Assembly: GCA_043827405.1 (NCBI GenBank)
Contig: JBDRPD010000053.1
Span: 20,826-84,825 of the forward strand
Direction of reading: 5' to 3'
From: Elusimicrobiota bacterium
GTDB taxonomy: Bacteria; Elusimicrobiota; Elusimicrobia; UBA1565
DNA length: 64,000 nucleotides
Shown here: piece by piece, positions 34,926 through 55,586 of the stretch
Layout of the letters: the number at the start of each line of letters is the position of its first letter
How positions within the stretch are numbered: position 1 is the first letter of the stretch
Notes under the pieces: generated by a model
The model's input: the letters and a program-made list of their open reading frames with translations, nothing else
Told to the model about the DNA's origin: nothing
Databases searched by the model: none
Position numbers and translations under genes: made by a program

Positions 34926-34933
34926 AAAGCGGC

Positions 34934-35365
34934 CTACTCTTTCTTCTTGAGCTTCATGCCGCACTTGGGGCATTTGCCCGGCGCATGCCCTTTATGGCAG
35001 CCCATCGGGCAGACGTAAACCTGGCCCGGCTTCTTGTCCTTTTTCTTGAGCAAGCAGCTCTTGCAGGTGCATCCTTCCTTGCAGCCGCTCTTGGCGTAGG
35101 CGGCCTGAATCTTCTCGACCACCGCCTTGTCCTTGGACGTGATGCGGATAATGATACCGTCGGCGGTATTTTCGAACTTGGTCTCAGCGCCCTTTATCGA
35201 CATAGGGCAGACATGAGCGTCCTTCTTGACGAGCTTCCCGTCTTTCGCGGCGGCATGCGCTTCTCCCACGCCGCAGGAACCGCAATGGGACCATGACGCT
35301 CCCGGGGCGCACAGCAGCGCCGCGGCCAAACCGGCGGCGATCCAAAGTCCTTGATATTTTTTCAT
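34934..35365 (-). CDS. Secreted small metal-binding protein with heavy-metal-binding-domain (YxCPM...GKCPxCGM) motifs
   Basis: 143 aa. Signal peptide MKKYQGLWIAAGLAAALLCAPGASWS. Motifs HVCPMSIKG and YVCPMGCHKGHAPGKCPKCGMKLKKKE match the HMBD (YTCPMHPE...CPxCGM) pattern of Cu/Ag/Zn resistance proteins. Also GCKEGCTCKSC. Convergent with paralog 8 with only an 8-bp gap. GC content is visibly lower than the flanks. Confidence 0.65.
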   Translation of the reverse strand: MKKYQGLWIAAGLAAALLCAPGASWSHCGSCGVGEAHAAAKDGKLVKKDAHVCPMSIKGAETKFENTADGIIIRITSKDKAVVEKIQAAYAKSGCKEGCTCKSCLLKKKDKKPGQVYVCPMGCHKGHAPGKCPKCGMKLKKKE

Positions 35366-35450
35366 GATGAGCCTCTTTGGTGAAGAATCAAATCCAGTAC
35401 AGAATAGACGAAGTCTTTCAACGCAAGCTTAACACGGTCTTAATTCCTTC

Positions 35451-36173: not shown

Positions 36174-36253
36174 AAGCCCCTCCCGGACGCAAGAGTTCCT
36201 CCTTCGCGTCGGCACACTCTTTGTATCATATCTTCCGGCCGCATTCCGAAGCC

Positions 36254-42329: not shown

Positions 42330-42333
42330 AACT

Positions 42334-42531
42334 ATGACCGAGAAAAAGCACAAGCCGCTGGGACACCGCCTCAAGGAGAACCTGGAGGTCCTGAAGGAAA
42401 TATACGCCCTGATCAAGCTGCATAAGCGCTGGGCGCTTCTGCCCGTCTTTCTCGTCCTGGCCGTGCTCAGCCTGTTTATCACTTTGGCGGGCGGCAGCTC
42501 CGTCCTCCCGGCGATCTACGCGCTGTTCTAA
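42334..42531 (+). CDS. DUF5989-like small membrane protein (65 aa)
   Basis: MTEKKHKPLGHRLKENLEVLKEIYALIKLHKRWALLPVFLVLAVLSLFITLAGGSSVLPAIYALF. A basic N-terminus, one TM helix and a C-terminal ...AP.IY.LF match the DUF5989 family pattern. Starts 4 nt after paralog 10, and its stop overlaps the ATG of the next gene (TAATG). Confidence 0.5.
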   Translation: MTEKKHKPLGHRLKENLEVLKEIYALIKLHKRWALLPVFLVLAVLSLFITLAGGSSVLPAIYALF

Positions 42532-43505
42532 TGGTCCGGCTCCTGCTTTTTGCCGCGGCCGCTTTCGCTTTCGCCGCCGAAACAGACAGCGCCCTAATAC
42601 GATCCTTCGCCGGCCACCGGGACCTCGTTAACAGCGTCGCCGTGTCGCATGATGGACGGAGGATGGCATCCGGCAGCGCCGACCTCACCATCCGGCTGTG
42701 GGACATCGCGACCGGCAAGCAGCTATCGCTGTGGAAAGGGCATACGGTCGAAGTGAACATGGTCGTTTTCTTCCCCGACGACAAGAAGCTGCTGTCCGCC
42801 GGCGCCGACAACAACATCTACCTGTGGGACGCCGCGACGGGAAAAAATCTCGCGATCTGGCACGGCCATACCGACGACGTCAATGCTATCGCCGTCTCAC
42901 CCGACGGCACCAAAGCGCTTTCCGGCGGCCACGACGGCTACGTGCGGCTATGGGACACGGCGACCGGGAAACTGCTCGCCTCCTGGCTGGTCGACAACTT
43001 CGTCTACGCCGTCGCCTTCTCTCCCGACGGCAGCAAAGCGCTTTCCGGACAATGGGACAAGACGCTCAAGCTGTGGGACGTCGCGACCGGGAAGCTCCTC
43101 GCCACCTGGAGGGGCCATACCGACAAGGTCTACGCCGTCGACTTTACTCCCGACGGGAAAACCGCGCTGTCGAGCAGCAAGGACAAGACCGCGCGGGTAT
43201 GGGATGTCGCCAGCGGCCGGACGCTGCATATCCTCCGGCAGCCGCGCGGCATCGACGCCGCGGCCTTCTCCCCCGACGGCAGCAGGATACTGACCGGCAA
43301 CCGGGACTGGACGCTGACGCTCTGGGACACGGCCAGCGGAAAAGAGCTGCGCGCGTTCCACGGCCACCAAGACTACATCTACAGCGTCGCCTTTCTTCCC
43401 GACGGCCGCCGCGCCGTTACCGCCAGCGTCGACCGGACCATCAAGCTGTGGGACCTCGATGCGGCGTTCGTGAAGACGGATAAAGAAACGAACGGCTATC
43501 GCTGA
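42531..43505 (+). CDS. Secreted stand-alone WD40-repeat beta-propeller protein (7 repeats, no heme domain)
   Basis: 324 aa. Signal peptide MVRLLLFAAAAFAFAAETD. Seven canonical WD40 repeats (GHRDLVNSVAVSHDG...IRLWD etc.). No CxxCH. Confidence 0.85.
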   Translation: MVRLLLFAAAAFAFAAETDSALIRSFAGHRDLVNSVAVSHDGRRMASGSADLTIRLWDIATGKQLSLWKGHTVEVNMVVFFPDDKKLLSAGADNNIYLWDAATGKNLAIWHGHTDDVNAIAVSPDGTKALSGGHDGYVRLWDTATGKLLASWLVDNFVYAVAFSPDGSKALSGQWDKTLKLWDVATGKLLATWRGHTDKVYAVDFTPDGKTALSSSKDKTARVWDVASGRTLHILRQPRGIDAAAFSPDGSRILTGNRDWTLTLWDTASGKELRAFHGHQDYIYSVAFLPDGRRAVTASVDRTIKLWDLDAAFVKTDKETNGYR

Positions 43506-44878
43506 GCGGCCAGCTCCGCGTAGACGTTATCCGCCAGCACCCGGTTCCCGGCCGGCGTCAGGTGGTCGTTGTCCTCGAGGTAGTCGCCGCGCCCCGCACG
43601 CTCGATCAAAGCGCCGAATACGGCGCGGTTGTCGATCAGCGGCAGCTTATGCTTCTCGGCGATCCGCTGGATGGCCGTATTGGCGCTCTGGTACGCCACC
43701 GGATAGTTCTGCAGCACCAGGCGCACGCCTTTCTCCCGGCATAGCCGCACCATCTCATCCCAGCTCTCCATACGCAGACGGTTCACGTAGCGCTCGACTT
43801 CCTCGCGGTCGGTGAGCAGCTTATGGAAGCTGCGGAAGTCCTTATTCTCTCCCAGCCCCGGATGCTCGCGCCGCGAGCGATCCAGCACCCGCAGGACGTC
43901 CGCCGCCGTGTACCGGCTCTGCACCTGATAGGTCTGGACGAACTGGAAGTTCGCGCCGTCGAAGGCGTCGGTCCAAAAGCCGGCGGGAAACGCCCCGGCG
44001 ATCTCCAGCAGCAGCGCGAAATAATCGTCGTAGCGCGACTGCCGGGTATAAACGCGGCCCGCATAGTCGGCCAGCAGCTCCATAAAGTCGCCGGCGCGGC
44101 GCAGGTCCAGCTCATAGCGCCGCGCCTCCGCTCCGAAGACGGGCCGCAGCCGCGCCGTCAGCTCCGGCGCCAGGGCGCGCTGAGGATCGCCGGCCATGAG
44201 CTTCCGGTGCTCGCGATAAACGCCCAGCAGCAATGCGAACTTTTCGTCCGAGTTTGGCTCCGTCTTCCCGCCCGCCCGCCGATGCCGCCACCGCAGCCGC
44301 AGGTGGCGGAAGACTTTGTAGATGCGCAGGCGGTAAAGCCAGCCGGCGGGCAGAACGTCGTGCCACCGCCCCCCTTCCTCACGCATTCGCTCCCGCATCA
44401 GGGGCAGATTGAAGATATCCGCGGCGCCCACGAGAACGACGACGGCATCCGGCGGCCGCTGCGCGCCCTCGGTTTCAAGGTAGCGCTTGAGCTTGGCGGC
44501 CGCGCCGAAGGTGCTCTCCTCGCACTTCCCCATATTATAGACCGCGGCCGGCATTCCGGCGTCGATGAACCGCCGGTACAGGAAATACGGAAAGCTGTGG
44601 TAGCTTTTGACGTTGGTGCCGTTGGTGAGCGAATCGCCGAAGGCGAGGATCAGCCGCGTCCGGCCGTTCGGCGGGCGGTAACGCTCGAACGTGTCGTCGG
44701 CGTCGTGCTCCCCCTCATCATAGGGCGGCAAAAACTCCCGCTGCCGCGAGGCGGTGAGAGCGAAACCGGTCGCCCGCAGACCCGCTTCCAGCAGCGCCAG
44801 GCAGATGAGCAGGCTGACCAGAAATACGGTCAGCTTGACGCCGGGCGAATGTTTGTATTTATTTAGGAATCTCTTCAC
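43496..44878 (-). CDS. Membrane-anchored SGNH/GDSL hydrolase family protein (paralog of the 54189-58348 cluster)
   Basis: 460 aa. N-terminal TM (VKLTVFLVSLLICLALLEAGL). GDSL block LILAFGDSLTNGTNV. C-terminal DNDHLTPAGNRVLADNVY (DxxH). Convergent 10-nt overlap with the WD40-only gene. Confidence 0.75.
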   Translation of the reverse strand: MKRFLNKYKHSPGVKLTVFLVSLLICLALLEAGLRATGFALTASRQREFLPPYDEGEHDADDTFERYRPPNGRTRLILAFGDSLTNGTNVKSYHSFPYFLYRRFIDAGMPAAVYNMGKCEESTFGAAAKLKRYLETEGAQRPPDAVVVLVGAADIFNLPLMRERMREEGGRWHDVLPAGWLYRLRIYKVFRHLRLRWRHRRAGGKTEPNSDEKFALLLGVYREHRKLMAGDPQRALAPELTARLRPVFGAEARRYELDLRRAGDFMELLADYAGRVYTRQSRYDDYFALLLEIAGAFPAGFWTDAFDGANFQFVQTYQVQSRYTAADVLRVLDRSRREHPGLGENKDFRSFHKLLTDREEVERYVNRLRMESWDEMVRLCREKGVRLVLQNYPVAYQSANTAIQRIAEKHKLPLIDNRAVFGALIERAGRGDYLEDNDHLTPAGNRVLADNVYAELAAQR

Positions 44879-44934
44879 GGGCGACAGAGTCTGAAGCGGC
44901 GGTGTTTTTGTATTGTAGTATAAACACCGACGCC

Positions 44935-45855
44935 ATGCCTGAAGCCTGGGAAGCCGAATGCCTGCTGGACGCGGACAAAGTCCGCCGGCTCCTCGACGCC
45001 CAGCTCCCCGACCTGAAAGACGCCCCCGTCGCCTACTTCAACGAAGGCTGGGACACCTGGATCTACGAGGTCGGCGGGAAATATCTGTTCCGCTTCCCCA
45101 AGCGCGAGTCCGCCGACGGCACTTTGCGCATGGAGCTGCGCCTCCTGCCCGAGCTCGAGGAGGCGGTGCCGCTGCCTATCCCGTCGTTCGAGTTTATGGG
45201 CCGGCCGTCGAAGCCCTATCCCTTTCACTTCGCCGGCTACGAGAAGATGCCGGGAATCACCGGCTTCGATGCCAAAGCCGCGCCGCCGGAGCCCGCGAAG
45301 ATCGCGCGCCAGCTCGGCGGCTTTCTCACGCGGCTGCACTCTTTTTCGCGCGCGGCCGCGAAGAAGCTCGGGGTGCCGATCGATGAGAATCTCGGCGCCC
45401 TGCCGCTCATCCAAAAGGACGCCCTGGGACGCCTCGACGCGGTGCGCGGGATCCTGCCGCGCAAGTTCTTTCAGCCGCTGAAAAAGGTCCTGAGCCGGGA
45501 CACCGCCCTCCTCGGCGGCCCCGCGGGCCCGTCGCGGCTGATCCACAACGATCTCTGCAGCGAGCATATCCTCCTCGCTGCGGACCGGCGGCGCGTCACC
45601 GGCATCATCGACTGGGGCGACGCGGAGTTCGGCGACCCGGCCATGGACTTCGCCGGCCTGCTGCAGTGGCTCGGCCCCGAGTTCATGGGAAGCGTGCTCG
45701 ACGCCTACAAGCTGGACATCGACGCCGACCTCCGGGAGCGGGCGCGCTTTCTCGCCTGCAGCGAGGGCGTCCAGGATATGCACTACGGGATGGACACCGG
45801 CCGCAAAGAGTTCGCCCTGGCGGGCGCCGCGGCGGCGCGCAACGCCTTGAAATAG
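44935..45855 (+). CDS. Phosphotransferase-family kinase (aminoglycoside phosphotransferase/APH-like fold)
   Basis: Start at MPEAWEAE within ORF 44902..45855. Catalytic loop LIHNDLCSEHILL and IDWGDAEFGDPAMDFA (HxDxxxxN ... DWG/DFG-like) are typical of APH/choline-kinase-like enzymes. Confidence 0.65.
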   Translation: MPEAWEAECLLDADKVRRLLDAQLPDLKDAPVAYFNEGWDTWIYEVGGKYLFRFPKRESADGTLRMELRLLPELEEAVPLPIPSFEFMGRPSKPYPFHFAGYEKMPGITGFDAKAAPPEPAKIARQLGGFLTRLHSFSRAAAKKLGVPIDENLGALPLIQKDALGRLDAVRGILPRKFFQPLKKVLSRDTALLGGPAGPSRLIHNDLCSEHILLAADRRRVTGIIDWGDAEFGDPAMDFAGLLQWLGPEFMGSVLDAYKLDIDADLRERARFLACSEGVQDMHYGMDTGRKEFALAGAAAARNALK

Positions 45856-45910
45856 TCGCCGAGGCTGTTTTGTACAATGGGCTGCGCCCCGCCAGGGGGC
45901 GGAGGTCCAC

Positions 45911-48900
45911 ATGACAGCACCCCAACTCGTTCGCGTCGCATGCGCCATCGCCATCACCCTCGCACCCGCCGCCGCGTTCGCGAATCCGGGCGACGGCTCC
46001 TACGAGCTCACGGCGCAGATCAGCAAGACCGCTTTCAAAGTAACGGGAAAGAAGTGGTATGCGAAGACCCTCCAGTTTTCGGCCGACGGCGGCATCCTGA
46101 TCGCCTCCGGCGCCAACTCGGAAGACAACGTTTTCCGCTTTTGGGACGTCGCGTCGGGGAAGCTCGTGGCCGAGATTCCCGAGATGCAGAACGACAGCAA
46201 GCTGGCGGTCACGCCCGACGGCCAGTTCCTAGTGCTGCGCTCGCCGACGACGCTCGTGCTCGCCCGCGCGGCCACCGGCAAGATCATCCAACGGGTCGTC
46301 ATCGATCCCAAGGCGTGGTCCCTTTCCACCACCCGGCTCGCCCTAACCAAGGACGGCGGCACCGTCGCGACGCAGCACGGCGCGAAGGTCAGATCGTGGG
46401 ATGTCGCATCCGGCAAGGAACGCAAGCCGCTCGCCGCCGCCAGCGGCAAAAAGGACAGCGAGGTGACGGCGCTGGCCTTCACGCCGGACGGCGGCACTTT
46501 GATCGGCGGCATCAACGATGACGACCGGCTGCACTTCTGGGACATGCGGACGCGGAAACTGCGCCTGGCCGCGCCCGAGCCGTGCGCGCTCCACGTGACG
46601 CAGATGGCCGTCAGCGCCGACGGTGCGCGGCTGATCACCGTAAACCTCAAAGGCCTGCTCTGCGCATGGGATCCGCGGACGCTGGCCATGGAAGGAGTGC
46701 TGACGCGGGACGTCCGCGTCGAGAGACCGCTATTGATGTCCCCGGACGGAAACACCTTGCTCTATTTCGACGCCAACCATGCGTTCACGCTTTGGGATAT
46801 CGAAAAGGAGCGAAAGAAGGCTTCTTTTGCCACCTCGTACGGCACGAACTTCGCCGTGTCGTCCGACTGGAAAACCGCCGCCGTAATAGGCCCCATCGGC
46901 GACAAGAGCGTCCGCGTCTTCGATGTCGCCTCCGGAGCGCTGCGCGGAGTCTTCAGCTCGGAGCCCGAGACGATCGATTTCACACTCGACGGCAAGACCC
47001 TGATAACCGGCGGCTACACCTCGAACCTTTGGGAGGTATCCACGGGCCGCCGGCGCGAGTTCTCAAGCGGCAACTCCTACTACTCGCTGGCCATCGCTCC
47101 GGACGGCAAATCGTTCGCGGCCTGCGAGCTTTACGGGACCGCCCATTTCTACGGCATCACCGCCGCCCCGACCCCGCAGGTCCCCGCGCCGACAGCCCCC
47201 GCCCTTCTCAGCGCCGAGCACGCTTTCAGCGAGCCGTCCGGCGACGGCGTTCTCGCGGCGGGCGAAAGCGGCACTCTGCGCGTGACCCTCCGCAACACGG
47301 GACGGGGCGCCGCCCATGCCGTCCGTGTAATACCGCGCCTGGAACCCTTCGCCCCCGGGATTCAGCTCTCGCCGGAGATCGTGCTGCAGACTCTCCCGCC
47401 GGCGGCGACCGCCGCGCTCGACATCGTGGTCCGCGCCACGCCCGAACTCGCATCCGGCGAGGCGAAGATCGTCGTGTCCGTGACCGAAGGCAACGGCTTC
47501 GACGCCCCCCCGTTCGCGGCGGCCGTCAAGACGCGGGGCTTCGCTCCCCCCCGCCTGGGCATCGCCGGCGTCAGCCTCGCCGGCGGCGGCAGCGTCAAGA
47601 AGCTGGCCACCAACCGCGTCGCCGTCACCATCCGGAATTCCGGAGAAGGCCCGGCGCAGGGCGTTCGCGCCGCGCTGGCGGTCGCCGATCCCAACATCTT
47701 CCTCGAATCCAAAGAGCCGGTCGCGCTCGGGGACCTGGAGCCGGGCGGCTCCAAGGAGGCGGAGTTCGGCTTCTTTATCAACAACCGCTACAGCGGAGCC
47801 AAAGAGCTTCCGATCACGGTCGGCATCGAAGAGGCGGCGGGCAAGTACGGGGTGAAGCCCGTTTCCCTGCGCCTCGCCTTGGATGAGCCGGCGCCCGACT
47901 GGTCGCGCGCCGCCGCGGCATCCGGCGCAGAGTTCAAGCTCAAGCGCATGACTCTTCTGCGCGGCGACGATGAGCTGCGCTACCCGGTCAGCTCGCGCGA
48001 CGGCAAGTGGGCGGCGGCCGGCAGCGGCGGCGGCTCGATCCTCGTATGGGACACGGCGACCGGCGAGCGCCGGGCGGCGCTGAAGATCAAGCTCGGCAAG
48101 CATTCGGAGCTCAAGCCCCAGGCTTTCACGCCGGACGGGGACGGCCTGTACGCGATCGCGGACAACAACGTCTACCTCCTGGACCTGGTCAATGAGCGCA
48201 GCCGGCCGTTCTGGAGCGGAACCCGCACCCGCTACGAGACGCGGGAGACCGGCAGCGCCTTCCAGCCGATCGCGACATTTTCCTACAACTTACTTGAAGC
48301 CGCGGCGCTCTCGCCCGACGGGCGAATGCTGGCGCTGGGCGGCTGCTACGAGAAAGACGAGGAATCGATCCTGCTCGACGTCGAGACCAAGGCCGAACGC
48401 GTGCTGCCCAGCGGCAGCGGCTGCGTGCGGCACGCCGTTTTCTCCCCGAAAGGGCGCCACCTCGCGCTCGGCCGCGAAAGCGGCGGCATGGTCGAAGTAT
48501 GGGATCCCGCCGCCGCCAAGCGCGTCAGCTCCTGGACGACCGGCAAGGACGCCGCGCGCGCTTTGGCCTTTTCCCCCGACGGGCAAACCCTGGCGACCAG
48601 CTTCGGCGAAAAAGACATCGCGCTGTGGGACCCGGCTACGGGCGCCCGCAAGGGCGTGCTCAAAGGAGACGGCTATGCCATCGGTCATCTGGCCTATTCC
48701 CCGGACGGCAGCTGGCTCGTTTCCACCTCCTACAACAATATGACGATATGGGATGCGCCCGCCTCCGCGCCCAAGGAAAAGCTCTCCACCGGCTATTACC
48801 GCGCCTTCACCTTCCTGCCGGACGGCACCTTGGCCGCGGCCAACGCGAAATCGCTGATCCTATACAGCCTCTACGGCGGCAAAAAAGCGGCACCCAAGCC

Positions 48901-50473
48901 GAAGGCCCCGGCCCGCCTGGAATTGGACGTCTCCTTTCGCGAGCCGTCCGGCAACCGGGCCTTGGACGCCGGCGAGGAAGGCGAGCTCGTCGTGAAGATC
49001 GCCAACCGCGGCAAGGGGAGCGCCTACGCGGTAAGGCTTCTCGCCGCGCTCGAGAAGCCGGCTCCGGGGCTGCGGCTCCCCCAGCCCCTGCTGGCGGGCG
49101 AGATCGCTCCGGGCAAATCGGTGACGCAGACATTGACGCTGCGCGCGACCGCCGGCATCGGCGCGCAGACGGTCACGCTTAAGATCGAAGCGCGTGAAGG
49201 CAACGGGTTCGACGCCGCTCCCCAGGTCATCGAGTTCCAGTCCCGCGCGCTGGAGGCGCCGCGACTGGAGATCGCCGGCCTGTCGCTGGCGGGCCAAGGC
49301 GTGGTCAAGGTCAACATGGTCAATAAGCTGACGGTCAAGGTGCGCAACAGCGGCCGCGGCGCGGCGCGGGACGTCAAGGCCGAGCTTGCGCTCGGCAGCC
49401 CGGAGATATTCCCTTCCGGCGAGACCGCGTACGCGCTGGGCACGCTCGCGCCCGGACAGACGGCGAAGGCGGACTTCGAGTTCTTCGTCAACGCCCGCTT
49501 CAAGGGCAAGAAGCTGCCGCTCGCGCTGAGCCTCAGCGAGTCGTTCGGACGCTTCGGCGTGCGGGAACAGCCGCTGCACCTGGCATTGGACGAGGCGCCT
49601 TCAGCGGCGCTGATTCAAGTACAGGAGCGCGAGCGCGAGGGAGCGCCGGCCGCGCCGGCGACGGCGGACGTGGACGCGCCCCCGCATACGGAGACCGCGC
49701 GTGATCCGGCGGCCTACGCCGTCGTCGTCGGCGTCGAGAAGTACCGGGAGAGCGGCCTCCCCGCCGTGGACTACGCGGCGCGCGACGCCCAGGCCGTGCA
49801 CGCTTACTTGACGCAGTCCATGGGGTTCGACTCCCGCAATGTCATTTTGCTGCAGAACGAGAGCGCGGCGAAGACCGATCTGGAAAAGTACCTCGGCGCG
49901 TGGCTCAACAACCGCGTGACGAAGAAGAGCCGGGTATTCGTATATTTTGCCGGCCACGGCGCCCCCGACCCCGCCACCGGAGAGGGCTACCTCATCCCGT
50001 ACGACGGTGACCCATCTTATACGAAGGAGACCGCCTATCCGCTCAAGAAGCTCTACGCGTCGCTGGCGAGCCTGCCCGCCGAGGAGGTGACCGTGGTCCT
50101 CGACTCCTGCTTCTCGGGCCGCGGCAAGCGGTCGGTCATCGCCAAGGGCGCGCGGCCGCTGGTGCTGACCAAATCCGAGAAGACGGCCGGGGAAAACACC
50201 GTCGTACTCAGCGCCGCCGGCGCCGACCAGATCAGCACCTTTCAACAGGACGCCGAGCACGGCCTGCTGACGTATTATCTGCTGCGCGGCCTGCGCGGGG
50301 ACGCCGACGCGGACGGCAACGGCCGCATCACGACCGGCGAGCTCTTCGCCTACACGCAGCCGGCGGTGGAGCGGGAGGCGCGGCTGCAGAACGTATCCCA
50401 GACGCCGACGCTGGACCCCGCGCTCGACGCGCTCGGGCGCCGCGCGAACCATGTCTGGATACGCCTGAAGTGA
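45911..50473 (+). CDS. Giant secreted protein (1520 aa): 2x [beta-propeller (WD-like) + two CARDB/DUF11-like Ig domains] + C-terminal caspase-like (peptidase C14) domain
   Basis: Signal peptide MTAPQLVRVACAIAITLAPAAAFA. WD-like repeats (FWDVASGK, SWDVASGK, FWDMRTRK; later WDTATGE, VWDPAAAK, LWDPATGA, TIWDAPA). Four CARDB-like segments (GTLRVTLRNTGRGAAHAVRV; VAVTIRNSGEGPAQGVRA; ELVVKIANRGKGSAYAVRL; LTVKVRNSGRGAARDVKA). C-terminal caspase domain: YAVVVGVEKY...VFVYFAGHGA...VTVVLDSCFSG (His/Cys dyad). SD ggaggt 6 nt upstream. Confidence 0.8.
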   Translation: MTAPQLVRVACAIAITLAPAAAFANPGDGSYELTAQISKTAFKVTGKKWYAKTLQFSADGGILIASGANSEDNVFRFWDVASGKLVAEIPEMQNDSKLAVTPDGQFLVLRSPTTLVLARAATGKIIQRVVIDPKAWSLSTTRLALTKDGGTVATQHGAKVRSWDVASGKERKPLAAASGKKDSEVTALAFTPDGGTLIGGINDDDRLHFWDMRTRKLRLAAPEPCALHVTQMAVSADGARLITVNLKGLLCAWDPRTLAMEGVLTRDVRVERPLLMSPDGNTLLYFDANHAFTLWDIEKERKKASFATSYGTNFAVSSDWKTAAVIGPIGDKSVRVFDVASGALRGVFSSEPETIDFTLDGKTLITGGYTSNLWEVSTGRRREFSSGNSYYSLAIAPDGKSFAACELYGTAHFYGITAAPTPQVPAPTAPALLSAEHAFSEPSGDGVLAAGESGTLRVTLRNTGRGAAHAVRVIPRLEPFAPGIQLSPEIVLQTLPPAATAALDIVVRATPELASGEAKIVVSVTEGNGFDAPPFAAAVKTRGFAPPRLGIAGVSLAGGGSVKKLATNRVAVTIRNSGEGPAQGVRAALAVADPNIFLESKEPVALGDLEPGGSKEAEFGFFINNRYSGAKELPITVGIEEAAGKYGVKPVSLRLALDEPAPDWSRAAAASGAEFKLKRMTLLRGDDELRYPVSSRDGKWAAAGSGGGSILVWDTATGERRAALKIKLGKHSELKPQAFTPDGDGLYAIADNNVYLLDLVNERSRPFWSGTRTRYETRETGSAFQPIATFSYNLLEAAALSPDGRMLALGGCYEKDEESILLDVETKAERVLPSGSGCVRHAVFSPKGRHLALGRESGGMVEVWDPAAAKRVSSWTTGKDAARALAFSPDGQTLATSFGEKDIALWDPATGARKGVLKGDGYAIGHLAYSPDGSWLVSTSYNNMTIWDAPASAPKEKLSTGYYRAFTFLPDGTLAAANAKSLILYSLYGGKKAAPKPKAPARLELDVSFREPSGNRALDAGEEGELVVKIANRGKGSAYAVRLLAALEKPAPGLRLPQPLLAGEIAPGKSVTQTLTLRATAGIGAQTVTLKIEAREGNGFDAAPQVIEFQSRALEAPRLEIAGLSLAGQGVVKVNMVNKLTVKVRNSGRGAARDVKAELALGSPEIFPSGETAYALGTLAPGQTAKADFEFFVNARFKGKKLPLALSLSESFGRFGVREQPLHLALDEAPSAALIQVQEREREGAPAAPATADVDAPPHTETARDPAAYAVVVGVEKYRESGLPAVDYAARDAQAVHAYLTQSMGFDSRNVILLQNESAAKTDLEKYLGAWLNNRVTKKSRVFVYFAGHGAPDPATGEGYLIPYDGDPSYTKETAYPLKKLYASLASLPAEEVTVVLDSCFSGRGKRSVIAKGARPLVLTKSEKTAGENTVVLSAAGADQISTFQQDAEHGLLTYYLLRGLRGDADADGNGRITTGELFAYTQPAVEREARLQNVSQTPTLDPALDALGRRANHVWIRLK

Positions 50474-50492
50474 CGCCCGGATCGCGTTAGGA

Positions 50493-52766
50493 TCAGCGCG
50501 GGCAGCCGCCCGGCGGGCGCAGCGGCAGGGCCGCGGCCCGCTGCGCACCGAGCCGCGCTTCCAGCTCCTTCTTATCAGCGGCGCCGATCTCGACGCAGGT
50601 TACGGCCGCCAGCGGAAAGGAGCGGAAAATCTTCGCTTCGAGATAAGCATCCGTTTCCTCATCGATCAGGCGCCAAAGAGCGTCATCCGCGGACTCCGCG
50701 GCGAGGCGCAGGCGCTCGCGCGACTGCGCCTGCTCTCGATATCCGGCGACGGCCAGCGCCGCCAGCGCTTTGCCGTAGTCCGCGGCGACAACCGCGTCTT
50801 CGGCGAAGGCTTGGCGGGCGCGCGACAGCTGCTCTCCGGCGGGGCGGCTTTGCGGATCGATCCCCATGCGGCCGAGCAGGTTGGCGCCGGACCGGCGGGT
50901 CGCGAAGGAATTCTTCCAGGCCGCGCTCGACAAGTGCACGACGATCGGCCCATACATCTCCGCCCAATCATTTTGCCCGGCCCCCGCGAACAAGTAGTCC
51001 GCCGCGCCGTACAGCGCGTCTTCTCCGGCCGGTATCAGACCGGTCTTTACCTGGGACGCCCCCTTAAGACCGGCCACCTGCTTGGGCGATAAAGCCAGGC
51101 CGTCTTCCGCCAGCAACGCGAACCGCGCGGCCCAGGTGCGAAAGAGGACGGGGGGATTGGAGGAGGAGACGCGCGCGACGAACGCTTTCTCGATAGCGCT
51201 GAGCGGCCTCAGCGCGTCGAGCATTTCCGCGACGGCCGGCGAAGAGAAGTCCGCCAGCGGCCGCTGCAGGGCTTCCTCCAACGGATGCCGGTAGGCGCGT
51301 TCTCCGGCTTCCAGCCGGAGCTTAAGGCGCTTGGCATAGGCGCGGGCGCCTGCATGACGCAGCACGGCGCGGGTCTCGGCTAGACGATGGTGCTTGAGCA
51401 CGGGTTGCGGTTCGGGATAATCGGTGATAAGGTAAGCCGTTCCCAGACGCAGGCCCTTATCGGCGGCCGCCTTGGCCAGCGCGAAACCCTCGACATCGAC
51501 CGTATCCGCGAGCGCCGCGGCACGTCTTAGAAACCGGCGCGTCTCAAGCAGCGGGCTCTCGACGGCGATATGGCAGGGCGGGCGGGCGTCGCCGGAAAGC
51601 TCGTTGGGGATATCCAATCGCTCGCCCGCTCGGGAGAGATAGCATGCGGGGTAAGCCAGGGAATAGGGAGGGAGATAGGTCAGGGCGCCCGCCGACCCGG
51701 CGAAATAAAGGGTCTCAAACTCCACGCCCGATTCCACCAGGCGGGCGATGGATGCGCCGAGGCTTTCGCCGTACCAGCTGTCTTCAACAGCGACGGCGAC
51801 CAAAGTAGTCGTCGCGACGCGGACGGTGAACGCTCGCCAGCCTTCCCCGCTCAGCTGCGCGGCGGGCGCGAGCTCTTCCTTGAGCTCATCGTAATAGCCG
51901 AGAGCGAGAACGTCGAATCGCCGCGGCAGCCCGGAGTTCTCCATAAACGGCGCGAGCAGCAGATCATCTCTCGATCGGGGAGCGTGATCGTCAAGCCGGA
52001 AGACCCGCGGCGCGGCGCCTGCGAGAAGCACTTTAAGCAGCGCCAGCTCGTGCAGGTAAAGAGAGCGGTTCGCGAAACCGTCCAGGACGAGGGCGTATCC
52101 CCCCTCCCGGCAAGCGGAGAACCTGGCCCGGAACCCATTGGTGGTTCCCGGGAAATTGAGCAGGCGGGGAGCCGCGGCGGCGCAGTGCGGAGGCCAGGGA
52201 ACGTCCGCCGCGGGAGAAGCCGCGATACGCAGGCCCTCTTCCGACGCCGACGAAGCCAAAGCGCCGAGCGCTCCCAGCCGGGAGTCCGCATAGCCGCGGG
52301 CATCCTCCATCGGCAGATCGGCCGGATCCGCCGCCGCGATTTCCTCCGGCCAGCCTTCCCGCAGCTCCCGCGAAGTCGACGCACCGGCGATGAACGGCGC
52401 GAAGAGCCGGACATCCGGCCGGCCGAAGTAGCGGAGAGTCCGCCGGCCCGCCTCCGCGAGGGCGGCGCGGCCGGCCGCATCCGATCCGGCGGCATAGCCC
52501 TCTTCGACACGGCGGATTAACTCGCGAATGGTGGGGTTGCCGGACCGCGTCTTCGCCTGGGCGGGCTCCAGACCTGCGGCCAGTTCGGGCGCGAGGCCAT
52601 AGCGTCCCAGATAGTATTTAAGGCTCCAGGCGGCATCGATCGCGGCCCGGCGGACCGCGGCGTCCTCGGGATTCTTTCCCGCCGGCGTCCGCACCGGAGC
52701 CGCTGCGCAGCCGGCCGCCAGCAGGACCGCGAGCGGGAGGAACAGCCGGCCGCGGGTCATTTGCAT
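50493..52766 (-). CDS. Large hypothetical lipoprotein (about 757 aa)
   Basis: Start at MQMTRGRLFLPLAVLLAAGCAAAPV (lipobox LAAGC) within ORF 50493..52820. No recognisable catalytic motif. Overlaps the end of the phosphatase gene by about 10 nt. Confidence 0.5.
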   Translation of the reverse strand: MQMTRGRLFLPLAVLLAAGCAAAPVRTPAGKNPEDAAVRRAAIDAAWSLKYYLGRYGLAPELAAGLEPAQAKTRSGNPTIRELIRRVEEGYAAGSDAAGRAALAEAGRRTLRYFGRPDVRLFAPFIAGASTSRELREGWPEEIAAADPADLPMEDARGYADSRLGALGALASSASEEGLRIAASPAADVPWPPHCAAAAPRLLNFPGTTNGFRARFSACREGGYALVLDGFANRSLYLHELALLKVLLAGAAPRVFRLDDHAPRSRDDLLLAPFMENSGLPRRFDVLALGYYDELKEELAPAAQLSGEGWRAFTVRVATTTLVAVAVEDSWYGESLGASIARLVESGVEFETLYFAGSAGALTYLPPYSLAYPACYLSRAGERLDIPNELSGDARPPCHIAVESPLLETRRFLRRAAALADTVDVEGFALAKAAADKGLRLGTAYLITDYPEPQPVLKHHRLAETRAVLRHAGARAYAKRLKLRLEAGERAYRHPLEEALQRPLADFSSPAVAEMLDALRPLSAIEKAFVARVSSSNPPVLFRTWAARFALLAEDGLALSPKQVAGLKGASQVKTGLIPAGEDALYGAADYLFAGAGQNDWAEMYGPIVVHLSSAAWKNSFATRRSGANLLGRMGIDPQSRPAGEQLSRARQAFAEDAVVAADYGKALAALAVAGYREQAQSRERLRLAAESADDALWRLIDEETDAYLEAKIFRSFPLAAVTCVEIGAADKKELEARLGAQRAAALPLRPPGGCPR

Positions 52767-53449
52767 CCCGCCGCTGCCAGCCGCTGCAGCAGCGCGCGCT
52801 GCGCCGGGTGCCAGGCGCATGCGGGCCGGGCCGCGACGATCATACTCTCCGCCTCGGCGACATCCTTGGCCACGCCGCGCAGCAGCAGCACCGCCGCCGC
52901 CAGAGCCGCCGATCGCCCATGACCGTTAGCGCAGTGGATGAATACGCCCCCCTCAGCCGACGCCGCCTGGCGTGCGAGCTCCATGAACGCGCCTTCCTCC
53001 GGCACAAAGGCATCAAGAGTCGGCAGTGACTTATACCCGCGGCGCGGCGCGTATTTAAGCCGGGGGAACTCGCTGGTCATATCGATAATTAATGTCACCG
53101 CCTCCGGGAGCTCCCTTTCGTAAGCGCGCCGCCCTAAAAACAAACCGGGAACGATCTCGTCCAGCACGTTTTCTCGTGAGAAAAATATCTGCGCGTGCCA
53201 GGTCGCCCAATTGATGAGCAGAAAGGGCAGCATGAGGACAACGATCCACCAGCGCATGGTGCCGTCATCGCGCTTGCCGAATACCCGTCCTGCCAAACCG
53301 AAATAAGCGCTGCCGACGGCCAGGCAGTTGGCGGCGGGCCACAGCATCAGCTGCTTCCAGCCGCCGCCGTCAAGCGACCAATAGACAAGCAGGGCGCCGA
53401 TCGAGAGGAAGGCGGCGGCTATCAGTTGGTGGGGGCGCTTGCGGCGCAT
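52757..53449 (-). CDS. Membrane-anchored dual-specificity/tyrosine phosphatase-like protein (CX5R)
   Basis: 230 aa. Three N-terminal hydrophobic helices. The P-loop VFIHCANGHGRSAA matches HCxxGxxR(S/T) of DUSP/PTP-type phosphatases (also PTPMT1/lipid-phosphatase-like). Confidence 0.7.
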   Translation of the reverse strand: MRRKRPHQLIAAAFLSIGALLVYWSLDGGGWKQLMLWPAANCLAVGSAYFGLAGRVFGKRDDGTMRWWIVVLMLPFLLINWATWHAQIFFSRENVLDEIVPGLFLGRRAYERELPEAVTLIIDMTSEFPRLKYAPRRGYKSLPTLDAFVPEEGAFMELARQAASAEGGVFIHCANGHGRSAALAAAVLLLRGVAKDVAEAESMIVAARPACAWHPAQRALLQRLAAAGCK

Positions 53450-53460
53450 GCTTTACACCC

Positions 53461-54192
53461 TCAAGCGGTCTTTTTCGCCGTCTTTTTCAGCTCACGGTCC
53501 CAGTGCTTGTTGGCGTTGCGGATATAGACATCGTGCGCGATGAGCGGCTTCTCGAGCACGGCGCGGGTCGGCTCGGAGATCGCGCCGTTTTCGACGACTT
53601 CCCGTCCCGCCGCCCGCACGGCCTTCATGTAGCCGCGCAGCATGAACCGCAGCATCGCCGACTCCACCCTGAGGAGCTCGCCCTCCCCGCGGTAGATCTC
53701 GGCGATGACCTCCGAGTGCATATTGCGCGCGATCCGCCGGAACAGCAGCTTCAGCACCTGGAAATGACTCTGCTCGGGGAAGCCGCAGTTGGAGATGACG
53801 ACGATCTTCGGCACGCCGACGGCCTTGACGTGCCGGTACTCGCCCGCCGAATCCTTCGCAAAATGAGGATCAATGAGCGGCACCATCCGGTCCATGAAAT
53901 TCTTCATCAGGCCCGAGACGTTGTCGACGTAGAGCGGCGTCGCGAAGACTACGATGTCGCTGTGCGCGAACCGGGGCAGCAGCTCGGCCATATCGTCCGG
54001 CATCGCGCATTTGCCGGGAGTTCGCGTCCAACACTTGAAGCAGCCGCGGCAGTGCTTGATCTTCTTCTCCGCGAGCAGGACATTCTCGACTTCGGCGCCG
54101 GCCGCGGCGGCGCCGCCGAGGAACGCCTCCACGAGAATATGGGTATTCCCCTTGCTTGCGCGCGCGCTGCCGTTGAAGGCCGTGATTTTCAT
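53461..54192 (-). CDS. Flavodoxin-fold NADPH-dependent FMN reductase / iron-sulfur flavoprotein (Isf-like)
   Basis: 243 aa. MKITAFNGSAR...SDIVVFATPLY matches the NADPH-dependent FMN reductase family. A compact Cys cluster HCRGCFKCW is like the Isf [4Fe-4S] motif. Its start overlaps the first SGNH gene (ATGA at 54189). Confidence 0.7.
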   Translation of the reverse strand: MKITAFNGSARASKGNTHILVEAFLGGAAAAGAEVENVLLAEKKIKHCRGCFKCWTRTPGKCAMPDDMAELLPRFAHSDIVVFATPLYVDNVSGLMKNFMDRMVPLIDPHFAKDSAGEYRHVKAVGVPKIVVISNCGFPEQSHFQVLKLLFRRIARNMHSEVIAEIYRGEGELLRVESAMLRFMLRGYMKAVRAAGREVVENGAISEPTRAVLEKPLIAHDVYIRNANKHWDRELKKTAKKTA

Positions 54193-55586
54193 TCGGCGAG
54201 CACCCCCGCTTTCTTAAGGGCCGCATAGACGTTCTGCGCCAGGAGCTGGTTGCCCACGGGTTTGAGGTGGTCGTCGTCTTCCATGTACTTCGTGCGCGGC
54301 TCCTTGGCGAAGAGCTCGGAATAGAACTTCTCATTGTCGATGAGCGGCAGATCGTATTTCTTCGCGACCTGCGCGATAATCCGGTTCGCGCTCTTGTAGG
54401 TCACCGGATAGTTCTGCACCACGACCTTGACGTTCTTCTCCCGGCTCATGCGCACGATCTCGTCCCAGGTCTCGAGCCGCTTGCGGTCGACGTAGCGGTC
54501 CATCTCCTCGCGGTCGAGCAGGATCTTGCGAAAATGGCGAAAGTACTCGTTGTGCGCCAGCTGCGGGTGCTTCTTCTCGGACTCCCGCAGCACCTTGAGG
54601 ACATCGTCCGCCGTATAACGGCTCTGGACCCGGTAGGCCTGGGTGAAGTGGTAGTTCGCCGAGTTGAAGTAGTCGTTCCAGAAATCCTCGGGGAAGGTCT
54701 GCGCGATATCGAGCAGCAGCGCGAAAAGGTCGTCGTAGCGGTGCTGCAGCTGGTAGAACCGGCCGGCGTAATCGGTCAGCAGGTCGGTAAAATCGCCGAT
54801 GACCTCGATGTCGAAATCCGCCTGCTGGATATCATCGGCGAAGGCGGTCTCAATCTTCGCCGCGAGCTCCGGGGCTAGATTTCTGTGCGGATCCCCGTCC
54901 AGGCTTTTTTTGTGCTGCTCGTAGACGTCCAGCAGCAGCTTAAACTTCTCCTCGTTGCTCGCGGGAGCTCCCCCCGCGTCGATCCCGTGCCGCGCCGCCA
55001 GGTTCAGCTTGATGTGCCGGTAGACCTTATAGAGCCGCAGCGTATACAGCCATCCGCGCGGCAGCACGTCGTACCAGAAGGTATCGTCCTTGAGCTTGCG
55101 CTCGCGGATCAGCGGGATATTGAACATGTCGGCGGCGCCGACCAGGATGACGACCGCATCGGGGAGCTGCTCGGGCGGATTCGTCTCCAGGTAGTGCTTC
55201 AGCTTAAGCGCCACCCCGAAGGTGCTGTCTTCGCAGTAGCCGAGATTGTAGACCGCCGTCCACTCTCCGGCGTCGGCGAAATTCCTGTACAGGTAGTATG
55301 GATAGCTGTGGTAGCTCTTGACGTTGCCGCCGTTGGTCAGGCTGTCCCCCAGCGTGAGGATCAGCCGGTCCCGCTTCGCCTCCGGCCGGTACCGCTCGAA
55401 GGTCTCATCGACATGATAGACCCGCTCCTCGAACGGCGGGACGAACTCGCGCTGGCGGGCGGCGGTCACCGCGAAACCGGTCAGCCGCAGGCCGGCCTCA
55501 AGAACCGCGAGACAAAAGAGGAGGCTCCCGCCGAGTACCGCGAACTTGACGCGCATGGAGTTTCGGTATTTAGCCAGCTTTCCCAT
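54189..55586 (-). CDS. Membrane-anchored SGNH/GDSL hydrolase, tandem paralog 1 of 3
   Basis: 465 aa. TM FAVLGGSLLFCLAVLEAGL. LILTLGDSLTNGGNV. C-terminal DDDHLKPVGNQLLAQNVY. Confidence 0.75.
   Translation of the reverse strand: MGKLAKYRNSMRVKFAVLGGSLLFCLAVLEAGLRLTGFAVTAARQREFVPPFEERVYHVDETFERYRPEAKRDRLILTLGDSLTNGGNVKSYHSYPYYLYRNFADAGEWTAVYNLGYCEDSTFGVALKLKHYLETNPPEQLPDAVVILVGAADMFNIPLIRERKLKDDTFWYDVLPRGWLYTLRLYKVYRHIKLNLAARHGIDAGGAPASNEEKFKLLLDVYEQHKKSLDGDPHRNLAPELAAKIETAFADDIQQADFDIEVIGDFTDLLTDYAGRFYQLQHRYDDLFALLLDIAQTFPEDFWNDYFNSANYHFTQAYRVQSRYTADDVLKVLRESEKKHPQLAHNEYFRHFRKILLDREEMDRYVDRKRLETWDEIVRMSREKNVKVVVQNYPVTYKSANRIIAQVAKKYDLPLIDNEKFYSELFAKEPRTKYMEDDDHLKPVGNQLLAQNVYAALKKAGVLAE

What the first reader, a model, noticed from the sequence alone, without database searches (positions are those of the whole stretch)
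45911..50473. 1520-aa secreted protein with duplicated propeller/CARDB units and a C-terminal caspase (C14) domain
It has a Sec signal peptide. Two rounds of a WD-like beta-propeller plus two CARDB/DUF11-like Ig domains follow. It ends with a caspase-like domain carrying the His-Cys dyad (YFAGHGA ... VVLDSCFSG). Bacterial caspase-like domains are usually N-terminal and cytoplasmic, fused to WD40, TPR or NACHT in STAND or anti-phage proteins. Here the protease is C-terminal on an exported protein, directly downstream of a secreted WD40-heme array and a free WD40 protein. It could be an extracytoplasmic processing protease for those propeller proteins, or a surface-displayed protease.
Basis: partly seen in the sequence, partly recalled or inferred. 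Interest (0 to 1): 0.75.

Follow-up and report, generated by a model that had tools for sequence, protein, structure and literature searches.

The report
Exported WD40–CARDB–caspase-like protease
This gene encodes a large exported protein whose tail is an intact caspase-type protease; it is a duplicated version of a widespread but unstudied family of periplasmic bacterial caspase relatives, so it is less odd than it first looked.

Summary
ORF 45911-50473 (+) encodes 1520 aa: a Sec-type signal peptide, two diverged copies of [WD40 propeller + two CARDB Ig-like domains], and a C-terminal Peptidase_C14 domain. His1349 and Cys1400 sit at the catalytic positions. The acidic S1 residues D1292 and D1398 predict cleavage after Arg/Lys.

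An exported, C-terminal caspase domain is the rule in this clade, not an exception. The closest 120 caspase domains are mostly lipoproteins with the domain at the C-terminus. An exhaustive search shows a constant exported 'CARDBx2-C14' cassette fused to many N-terminal periplasmic modules: WD40, ankyrin, TPR/PDZ, cytochrome c, a DctP solute-binding protein and an S41 peptidase. About 40 of the top 150 clusters are signal peptide-WD40-CARDBx2-caspase. Only three carry the duplicated unit.

The proposed link to the neighbouring WD40-haem array is not supported. A GDSL lipase gene on the opposite strand and a cytoplasmic kinase gene lie between them, and none of nine relatives' loci has such genes within 10 kb.

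The most likely reading is a periplasmic Arg/Lys-specific endopeptidase that recruits targets through its propellers. NCBI already names it 'caspase family protein'. It is a new variant of a known kind, of moderate interest.

The parts
45911..50473 (+). Complete ORF, 1520 aa plus stop; identical to an NCBI MAG protein named 'caspase family protein [Elusimicrobiota bacterium]'
   Evidence: P0001, 100% identity
45911..45982 (+). Sec (signal peptidase I type) signal peptide, aa 1-24, with predicted cleavage AFA|N
   Evidence: Read from the sequence and a hydrophobicity heuristic. Orthologues also have signal peptides.
46028..47170 (+). Propeller 1, aa ~40-420. Diverged WD40-type beta-propeller with nine 'xSPDG'-type repeats, so about 8-9 blades. 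It has two more N-terminal repeats than propeller 2.
   Evidence: Pfam propeller models; AF2 model with 34 strands; Foldseek matches to ODA16, Rsa4 and WDR5
47207..47866 (+). Ig pair 1, aa ~433-652: two CARDB/DUF11-like beta-sandwich domains
   Evidence: Pfam CARDB 31.3 bits; AF2 beta-sandwiches at model residues 409-518 and 525-628
47948..48880 (+). Propeller 2, aa ~680-990: WD40-type propeller with seven repeats
   Evidence: Pfam THOC3, WDR3 and WD40 models on aa 784-971; internal repeat alignment
48908..49585 (+). Ig pair 2, aa ~1000-1225: two CARDB-like domains. Together with the caspase domain this forms the family's constant cassette.
   Evidence: Pfam CARDB 37.5 bits and NPCBM_assoc; NCBIfam TIGR03900 positions 546-764; cassette conserved in about 70 of the top 150 clusters
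49706..50470 (+). Peptidase_C14 (caspase-hemoglobinase fold) domain, aa ~1266-1520
   Evidence: PF00656 at 59.2 bits; AF2 pLDDT 87 and pTM 0.87; Foldseek GSU0716, MALT1 and Yca1 at E about 1e-12
49955..49957 (+). Codon of catalytic His1349 (YFAGHGA)
   Evidence: Aligned to the SGHG motif of yeast Yca1; His in 229 of 230 relatives
50108..50110 (+). Codon of catalytic Cys1400 (LDSCFSG). D1398, two residues earlier, and D1292 are the predicted acidic S1-pocket residues.
   Evidence: Cys 229/230, D1398 229/230, D1292 229/230. MALT1 and AtMC4 profile alignments run through the Cys.
50114..50167 (+). Disordered loop just after the catalytic Cys, aa 1402-1419, carrying conserved R1407 and R1415. Candidate autoprocessing or activation loop (inferred).
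   Evidence: pLDDT below 50 for model residues 163-180; R1407 in 207/230 and R1415 in 209/230
50306..50341 (+). EF-hand-like loop DADGNGRITTGE, aa 1466-1477, between two helices. Candidate Ca2+ site (inferred).
   Evidence: Loop positions 1, 3, 5, 6, 8 and 12 are conserved in 77-92% of 230 relatives. Helix-loop-helix in the AF2 model. Pfam EF-hand_1 reaches only E=0.3.

Best explanation
What it is. The gene encodes a Sec-exported, soluble, most likely periplasmic cysteine endopeptidase of the caspase/metacaspase fold (MEROPS family C14). It belongs to a large, uncharacterised clade found mainly in Elusimicrobiota, Nitrospirota and Proteobacteria MAGs.

The family. The clade has a constant C-terminal cassette of two CARDB Ig-like domains plus a C14 domain. 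This cassette is fused to interchangeable N-terminal periplasmic binding modules. Here the module is a WD40 propeller, and the unit [propeller + Ig pair] was tandemly duplicated before this protein diverged from its 44%-identical orthologues.

Inferred mechanism (not shown):
- The two propellers recruit protein or peptide partners.
- The Ig domains act as spacers or as an oligomerisation platform.
- The caspase domain cleaves after Arg/Lys, because it has the acidic S1 pocket of meta- and paracaspases.
- Activity is probably controlled by Ca2+ through an EF-hand-like loop, and by cleavage or rearrangement of the conserved Arg-containing loop that follows the catalytic Cys.

The physiological substrates are unknown.
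For: Shown by tools:
- C14 HMM above threshold.
- The family profile aligns its GHG motif to the SGHG of yeast metacaspase Yca1, and runs through the Cys in AtMC4 and MALT1.
- Confident AF2 model with the caspase fold.
- His, Cys and both S1 Asp residues are conserved in 229 of 230 relatives.
- Signal peptides are present in this protein and in its orthologues.
- Relatives fuse the same cassette to obligately periplasmic modules: cytochrome c with CxxCH, a DctP solute-binding protein, and an S41 peptidase with PDZ.
- Most of the nearest caspase domains are lipoproteins with the domain at the C-terminus.
- The internal duplication is significant at E=8e-63.
- One-unit forms exist (L005; P0243-P0246, P0249, P0253), and the only other two-unit forms found are P0002 (44% identity over 98% of the query) and the cluster representatives P0241 and P0242.

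From established knowledge: the Asp in 'xDA' after strand 1, and the Asp two residues before the catalytic Cys, form the basic-P1 pocket in TbMCA2, Yca1 and MALT1.
Against: - No biochemical data exist for any member of this clade.
- Export rests on sequence heuristics and domain-fusion logic, not on a dedicated predictor or an experiment.
- The roles assigned to the propellers and Ig domains are inferred from general knowledge of those folds.
- The EF-hand match is not significant in Pfam (E=0.3).
- R1415 is followed by Pro, which many proteases disfavour at P1'.
- Gene neighbourhoods are not conserved, so context gives no hint of substrates.
Confidence: 0.7

Rival explanations
1. One reading: a dedicated extracytoplasmic processing or maturation protease for the neighbouring secreted WD40-di-haem-peroxidase paralogues (11093-42329) and the free WD40 protein (42531-43505).
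For: - The gene lies about 3.6 kb from the array.
- All of these proteins carry signal peptides.
- The free WD40 protein is 42-44% identical to the propeller of one-unit caspase relatives.
- Some family members fuse cytochrome c domains to the cassette (P0256, P0329).
Against: - A minus-strand GDSL lipase gene and an APH-type kinase gene without a signal peptide separate it from the array.
- None of nine related loci has a CCP_MauG or WD40-haem gene within 10 kb.
- The target's own propellers are only 25-33% identical to those of the array, which is generic WD40 similarity.
Confidence: 0.1
2. A periplasmic, immune-like sensor-effector. The variable N-terminal module detects an envelope-invading molecule and switches on the caspase. 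The caspase then licenses an adjacent zymogen effector or damages the envelope, as a periplasmic counterpart of cytoplasmic caspase-STAND defence systems.
For: - A constant effector cassette is combined with highly variable sensor-like modules.
- The nearest NCBIfam subfamily is the EACC1-associated caspase, at 98 bits.
- Two orthologues have an alpha/beta-hydrolase or a metallophosphoesterase directly upstream, with gaps of 13-17 nt. Both classes are listed among protease-associated defence effectors (bioRxiv 10.1101/2025.11.14.688446).
Against: - The NF047832 score is below its cutoff of 140.
- PADLOC gives only the generic 'caspase' model for the protein, and nothing for the neighbours here or in relatives.
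- Upstream neighbours differ in nearly every locus.
- There is no NTPase domain.
- The upstream kinase in this window has no signal peptide.
Confidence: 0.1
3. A surface-displayed or secreted adhesin or S-layer-like scaffold. The propeller + Ig units would be structural, and the protease would act on external proteins, for example for nutrient acquisition.
For: - Propeller + Ig tandems resemble archaeal S-layer YVTN-PKD modules (1l0q among the Foldseek hits).
- CARDB domains are typical of cell-surface proteins.
Against: - No lipobox, C-terminal sorting domain or other anchoring signal is present, and the caspase domain ends at the last residue.
- Many relatives are lipoproteins or are fused to periplasmic proteins, which points to the periplasm.
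Confidence: 0.07
4. A catalytically dead pseudo-protease that acts only as a binding scaffold.
For: Pseudo-orthocaspases with Tyr/Ser in place of His/Cys exist (PMC6426788). One of the 230 relatives has Tyr and Ser at the dyad positions.
Against: This protein keeps His1349, Cys1400, both flanking glycines and both S1 aspartates.
Confidence: 0.03

Closest known systems
Prokaryotic caspase homologues with WD40 repeats (orthocaspases / bacterial metacaspases, e.g. the Metacaspase-NACHT-WD40 architecture; Asplund-Samuelsson et al. 2012, PMC3501461)
   Same: C14 domain with the His-Cys dyad, combined with WD40 repeats as a protein-interaction module. Predicted basic P1 specificity.
   Different: In those proteins the caspase domain is N-terminal, usually followed by a STAND NTPase, and they are cytoplasmic. 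Here the order is reversed, there is no NTPase, a CARDB pair is inserted, and the protein is exported.
GSU0716 of Geobacter sulfurreducens (PDB 3BIJ), a structural-genomics bacterial caspase-like protein
   Same: Best structural match of the modelled domain (Foldseek E=1.5e-12, TM about 0.57-0.60).
   Different: Only 18-20% identical. It is a single-domain protein of unknown function, with no propellers or Ig domains.
MALT1 paracaspase (death domain-Ig-Ig-caspase-Ig)
   Same: Caspase fold, Arg-specific acidic S1 pocket (an Asp before the Cys), and two Ig-like domains immediately N-terminal to the protease. Foldseek E about 2e-12.
   Different: No death domain and no C-terminal Ig3. The Ig domains here are CARDB-type and there is no evidence that they are homologous. 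Eukaryotic and cytoplasmic versus bacterial and exported. 16-17% identity.
NCBIfam NF047832, EACC1-associated caspase
   Same: Closest curated caspase subfamily model (98.1 bits over aa 1269-1487).
   Different: The score is below the curated cutoff of 140. No EACC1 partner was detected, and those systems are cytoplasmic defence modules.
Exported ankyrin-caspase lipoproteins of Nitrospirota, Elusimicrobiota and Proteobacteria (unnamed; e.g. P0165, annotated 'peptidase C14')
   Same: Caspase domain 50-55% identical, C-terminal and exported.
   Different: Lipoprotein signal rather than a signal peptidase I signal, ankyrin repeats instead of WD40, and most lack the CARDB pair.
TIGR03900 MXAN_5808-family long C-terminal-processing (S41) peptidases
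   Same: They share the CARDB-pair module (profile positions 546-764 match aa 995-1210, 113 bits). One relative, P0294, even fuses S41-PDZ to the CARDBx2-caspase cassette.
   Different: Serine peptidase catalytic domain. The whole-protein score is far below the cutoff of 661.

Membership tests
Peptidase family C14 (Pfam PF00656, caspase-hemoglobinase fold) | HMM score above the curated gathering threshold | tested here: met
   55.0 bits for the whole protein and 59.2 bits for the domain alone, against a cutoff of 21.4
Peptidase family C14 (Pfam PF00656, caspase-hemoglobinase fold) | His and Cys of the catalytic dyad at the homologous positions (after strands 3 and 4) | tested here: met
   The family profile aligns GHG to Yca1 SGHG, and runs through the Cys in AtMC4 and MALT1. 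His1349 and Cys1400 lie at the ends of model strands 102-113 and 153-161. Each is conserved in 229 of 230 relatives.
Peptidase family C14 (Pfam PF00656, caspase-hemoglobinase fold) | Caspase-hemoglobinase three-dimensional fold | tested here: met
   AF2 pLDDT 87 and pTM 0.87. Foldseek matches GSU0716, MALT1, Yca1, AtMC9, caspase-11 and CED-3 at E from 1e-12 to 1e-9. This is a predicted model only.
Peptidase family C14 (Pfam PF00656, caspase-hemoglobinase fold) | Cysteine-dependent peptidase activity | not testable with these tools
   Needs an enzyme assay with a C1400A control
Metacaspase/paracaspase/orthocaspase-type (basic P1) subgroup of C14 | Acidic S1 pocket: an Asp in the 'xDA' motif after strand 1 and an Asp two residues before the catalytic Cys | tested here: met
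   D1292 (ARDA) aligns with Yca1 NDA. D1398 is in DSC. Both are conserved in 229 of 230 relatives. The pocket role comes from published TbMCA2, Yca1 and MALT1 structures (my own knowledge).
Type I / type II metacaspases | N-terminal Pro-rich or zinc-finger prodomain (type I), or a long p20-p10 linker (type II) | tested here: not met
   No such prodomain was found. The loop after the Cys is only about 18-28 residues.
NCBIfam NF047832, caspase, EACC1-associated type | Score above the curated cutoff of 140 bits | tested here: not met
   98.1 bits
Caspase-STAND / anti-phage caspase systems | STAND or other NTPase sensor fused or adjacent, cytoplasmic location, and a recognised defence-system partner | tested here: not met
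   Pfam finds no NTPase domain. A signal peptide is present. PADLOC hits only the generic 'caspase' model, and the neighbours give nothing.
Paracaspase (MALT1-like) | Death domain + Ig-Ig + caspase + C-terminal Ig3 | tested here: not met
   The Ig-Ig-caspase order is shared, but there is no death domain and no C-terminal Ig, and the caspase domain ends the protein.
CARDB (PF07705) | HMM above the gathering threshold of 22.7 bits | tested here: met
   55.5 bits for the whole protein; 37.5 and 31.3 bits for the two Ig pairs scanned separately
WD40 repeat propeller (PF00400 and propeller-level models) | Repeat HMM above threshold and a beta-propeller fold | tested here: met
   PF00400 at 73.5 bits against 27. 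AF2 model with 34 strands and Foldseek WD40 propeller matches at E about 1e-19 to 1e-15. The repeats are diverged, and only two pass individually.
Exported 'CARDBx2-C14 cassette' clade (defined here) | N-terminal export signal, a variable module, two CARDB-like domains, then a C-terminal C14 domain with an intact dyad | tested here: met
   One alignment stretch covers the whole query in P0245. About 70 of the top 150 clusters share the cassette, and about 40 have WD40 in front of it.

The most novel reading that the evidence does not exclude
The exported CARDBx2-caspase cassette, with its swappable N-terminal binding modules, is a periplasmic sensor-protease system. It would be an extracytoplasmic analogue of apoptosome- or STAND-type caspase activation. 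Ligand or invader binding to the propellers clusters and activates a Ca2+-dependent, Arg/Lys-specific caspase. The caspase then licenses neighbouring exported zymogens (alpha/beta-hydrolase, metallophosphoesterase) or remodels the envelope.
Probability: 0.1. Interest if true: 0.8.

Novelty: new variant of a known kind. Interest (0 to 1): 0.4.

Why it matters
The functions of bacterial caspase homologues are still largely unknown, and discussion has centred on cytoplasmic cell-death and defence roles. This locus belongs to a populous clade in which the caspase domain is exported. In that clade it is coupled, through a fixed pair of Ig-like domains, to many different periplasmic binding modules. 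If these enzymes are active, they form an unexplored class of envelope proteases with a sensor-plus-effector design. The duplicated two-propeller form found here would be a good test case for how recognition modules steer a caspase-fold protease outside the cytoplasm. For this single gene the practical result is modest. It is correctly annotated as a caspase family protein, and its supposed oddity is typical of its relatives.

Tried and rejected
1. phmmer of the caspase domain alone against PDB sequences found nothing. A 40-sequence profile was needed.
2. The third word-indexed homologue search, using the CARDB pair alone, returned no hit at all, not even the protein itself. The index appears not to cover this part of long proteins, so that search was wasted. 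The exhaustive representative search replaced it.
3. The genome-contig scan found only three caspase-only Nitrospira relatives, and none with the full architecture.
4. The promoter/terminator scan of 42300-50800 gave counts at the chance level and says nothing about operon structure.
5. PADLOC scans of the protein, its neighbours and the upstream genes of relatives gave only the generic caspase model. I therefore did not file the locus as a defence system.
6. I considered a lipoprotein signal and rejected it. Cys11 is preceded by R-V-A and would leave too short a hydrophobic core.
7. I considered a special relationship between the target's propellers and those of the array. Identity is only 25-33%, which is generic for WD40.
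8. Pfam EF-hand_1 on the DADGNGRITTGE loop is not significant (E=0.3). The Ca2+ site therefore rests only on motif conservation.
Full report

Yes. The window holds an ATG-initiated ORF at 45911-50473 on the plus strand, encoding 1520 aa. A GGAGG lies five bases upstream of the start.

The N-terminus is MTAPQLVRVACAIAITLAPAAAFA|NPGD. It has a basic n-region, a hydrophobic core of about 15 residues and an AxA cleavage motif. It has no twin-arginine motif and no usable lipobox.

Pfam finds the following:
- WD40-type propeller models over aa ~60-420 and ~700-990.
- CARDB (PF07705) in two separate regions.
- Peptidase_C14 (PF00656) at aa 1269-1502, 55 bits against a gathering score of 21.4.

aa 146-659 aligns with aa 695-1228 at 32% identity over 552 columns, E=8e-63. 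The 'two rounds' are therefore a genuine tandem duplication of [propeller + two Ig-like domains]. Unit 1 has nine 'xSPDG'-type repeats and unit 2 has seven.

An AlphaFold2 model of aa 25-670 (pLDDT 75.8) is all-beta, with 34 strands followed by two beta-sandwich domains. Its best PDB matches are WD40 propellers (ODA16, Rsa4, WDR5). The hits also include the YVTN-propeller-plus-PKD unit of an archaeal S-layer protein.

**2. Is the caspase domain catalytically plausible?**

A 40-sequence profile of the domain (A1) matches yeast metacaspase Yca1 (E=1.3e-7), Arabidopsis metacaspases 4 and 9, TbMCA2 and MALT1. The family's GHG motif aligns to Yca1's SGHG, and the MALT1 and AtMC4 alignments run through the Cys.

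The AF2 model of aa 1240-1520 is confident (pLDDT 87, pTM 0.87). It matches GSU0716 (3BIJ), MALT1, Yca1, AtMC9, caspase-11 and CED-3 at E from 1e-12 to 1e-9. His1349 and Cys1400 sit at the C-terminal ends of the two long central strands, as in caspases.

Conservation across 230 related domains:
- His, Cys, D1292 (ARDA) and D1398 (DSC) are each present in 229 of 230.
- From published TbMCA2, Yca1 and MALT1 structures (my own knowledge), these two aspartates line the S1 pocket that selects Arg/Lys. I therefore predict basic, not Asp, specificity.
- The only low-confidence stretch of the model is aa 1402-1419, directly after the Cys. It carries R1407 (207/230) and R1415 (209/230). This is a candidate activation or autoprocessing loop (inference).
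- A loop, DADGNGRITTGE at aa 1466-1477, lies between two helices and fits the EF-hand consensus. Positions 1, 3, 5, 6, 8 and 12 are conserved in 77-92% of relatives.
- Pfam EF-hand_1 is not significant on this loop (E=0.3). Ca2+ control is a hypothesis only.

**3. How unusual is it?**

The protein is identical to an NCBI MAG protein already named 'caspase family protein [Elusimicrobiota bacterium]'.

The nearest caspase domains. A search with the caspase domain alone gave 597 hits, the best 120 at 49-67% identity.
- In nearly all apparently full-length hits the domain is C-terminal.
- Of 76 Met-initiated proteins of at least 380 aa, 52 have a hydrophobic core plus a strict lipobox. Most of 13 others have a lipobox-like Cys.
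- Many of these proteins carry ankyrin repeats.

The exhaustive search. I searched aa 670-1520 against 1.84 billion cluster representatives and classified the top 150 locally.
- About 70 of the top 150 clusters share a CARDBx2-C14 cassette.
- About 40 of those have a signal peptide and WD40 propellers in front of the cassette. Examples are P0243-P0246, P0249, P0253, P0258 and P0259, and giants such as P0264 at 2652 aa.
- Other members put different modules in front of the same cassette: two cytochrome c domains (P0329), cytochrome c plus WD40 (P0256), an S41 peptidase with PDZ (P0294), a DctP TRAP solute-binding protein (P0311), ankyrin (P0248), TPR (P0325) and DUF4384 (P0250). P0270 has TPR plus PDZ in front of a caspase domain, but no CARDB pair was detected in it.
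- Cytochrome c, DctP and S41/PDZ are periplasmic modules. They independently support an extracytoplasmic location for the cassette.

The duplicated unit. In the exhaustive search, only this protein, P0241 (1471 aa) and P0242 (1512 aa) have it; P0002, found by the word-indexed search, is a further two-unit sequence. A one-unit version in Elusimicrobia RBG_16_66_12 is split by assembly gaps and annotated only as a 268-aa caspase. Orthologous two-unit proteins are 44% identical, while the two internal units are only 32% identical. The duplication therefore predates their divergence (inference).

Other support. Among generic WD40 hits, 15 of 118 also have a C-terminal caspase domain after the WD40 repeats; the three whose N-termini I read (P0090, P0096, P0110) begin with signal peptides. 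The 2012 survey of prokaryotic caspase homologues already listed WD40 as the commonest partner domain. It also noted 46 proteins with an N-terminal helix or signal before the caspase domain (PMC3501461).

**4. Context and the 'processing protease' idea**

Upstream on the plus strand lie ten tandem paralogues at 11093-42329. Each has a signal peptide, a WD40 propeller and four CxxCH motifs, and they are 46-63% identical to one another. A secreted stand-alone WD40 protein follows at 42531-43505.

Between these genes and the target lie two others:
- a membrane-anchored GDSL lipase gene on the minus strand, 43496-44878;
- an APH-type phosphotransferase gene at 44902-45855 with no signal peptide.

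Only the kinase gene is co-directional with the target, with a 55-nt gap. Downstream, a 775-aa predicted lipoprotein gene converges on the target.

Consensus promoter and terminator scans were uninformative. The target's propellers are 25-33% identical to those of the array, which is generic WD40 similarity.

I examined nine related loci: L004, L005 and L007-L013. None has a CCP_MauG or WD40-haem gene within 10 kb. The upstream neighbours differ from locus to locus:
- an alpha/beta-hydrolase;
- a metallophosphoesterase;
- an unknown lipoprotein (in two syntenic loci);
- a second caspase gene;
- a response regulator;
- a CHASE2-cyclase;
- a PfkB kinase.

Two weak points favour some link to the array. 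The free WD40 protein is 42-44% identical to the propeller of one-unit relatives. Cytochrome c fusions also exist in the family. I rate the dedicated-processing hypothesis at about 0.1.

**5. Defence-system reading**

The closest curated caspase subfamily is the EACC1-associated type, but its score of 98 bits is below the cutoff of 140. PADLOC gives only a generic caspase model for the protein. It gives nothing for the neighbours here or in relatives.

A 2025 preprint lists alpha/beta-hydrolases and metallophosphoesterases among protease-licensed defence effectors (10.1101/2025.11.14.688446). Two orthologues have such genes directly upstream. Those systems are cytoplasmic, however, and the neighbours here are not conserved. 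This is a lead, at about 0.1, and not a finding.

**6. Verdict**

The most likely reading (0.7) is an exported, probably periplasmic, Arg/Lys-specific caspase-fold endopeptidase. It recruits partners through two WD40 propellers, with CARDB domains as spacers or platforms. Ca2+ and a post-Cys loop may control its activity.

What is shown:
- the domain composition;
- the internal duplication;
- dyad and S1 conservation;
- the predicted fold;
- the family-wide cassette and its periplasmic fusion partners.

What is inferred:
- export;
- substrate recruitment by the propellers;
- the mode of activation;
- the physiological role.

It is a new architectural variant (a duplicated unit) within a populous but unstudied branch of a known protease family. 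Interest is moderate, at 0.4. The family as a whole is more interesting than this one gene.

Noticed in passing
window 11093-42329 (+): Ten tandem paralogues of 960-1036 aa, 46-63% identical pairwise. Each has a signal peptide, a WD40 propeller and four CxxCH motifs, that is, two CCP_MauG di-haem peroxidase modules. Pfam was run on two of them. There is a break of about 1.3 kb at 34925-36221. This is a striking expansion in its own right.
   Followed up: partly
window 42531-43505 (+): A secreted stand-alone seven-repeat WD40 protein. It is 42-44% identical to the propeller of one-unit WD40-CARDB-caspase proteins from other Elusimicrobiota (L010, L005), closer than the target's own propellers are.
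   Followed up: partly
window 9837-11033 (-), 43496-44878 (-), 54189-55586 (-), 55596-56957 (-): Several GDSL/SGNH lipase-like paralogues scattered through the window. One also carries TPR repeats. The two whose N-termini I read (9837-11033 and 43496-44878) have a hydrophobic, membrane-anchor-like N-terminus.
   Followed up: no
window 50306-50341 (+): An EF-hand-like loop, DADGNGRITTGE, inside the caspase domain between two helices. It is conserved at the Ca2+-ligand positions in 77-92% of 230 relatives, but is not significant in Pfam (E=0.3).
   Followed up: partly
window 50493-52820 (-): A 775-aa predicted lipoprotein (LAAGC lipobox) with no Pfam or PADLOC hit. It converges on the target, with the two stop codons 20 nt apart.
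   Followed up: no
L007 1-312: The C-terminal end of a second caspase-domain gene lies 58 nt upstream of the two-unit orthologue P0242, so the two are tandem caspase paralogues.
   Followed up: partly
L006 10001-20744 (CP096137, complete Elusimicrobiota genome): A gene annotated as caspase-only sits directly upstream of the outer-membrane biogenesis cluster bamA-skp-lpxD-lpxC-fabZ-lpxA-lpxB.
   Followed up: no
L005 8255-10807 (Elusimicrobia RBG_16_66_12, MGUL01000197): A one-unit signal peptide-WD40-CARDBx2-caspase gene is split by two assembly gaps (runs of N). GenBank annotates it only as a 268-aa hypothetical protein. The upstream unknown 400-aa lipoprotein and lgt are syntenic with L010.
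   Followed up: yes
L013 7615-12223 compared with window 43496-50473: A one-unit relative is preceded by a GDSL lipase and a PfkB kinase. The target is preceded by a GDSL lipase (on the opposite strand) and an APH-type kinase. The resemblance may be coincidence.
   Followed up: no
family alignment of 230 caspase domains: One relative has Tyr and Ser in place of the catalytic His and Cys. These are the same substitutions described for cyanobacterial pseudo-orthocaspases.
   Followed up: no
window 215-2844 (-): A multihaem cytochrome (c554/MtrC-like) gene lies next to a B12-binding radical SAM gene at the left edge of the window. The region is generally rich in exported haem proteins.
   Followed up: no
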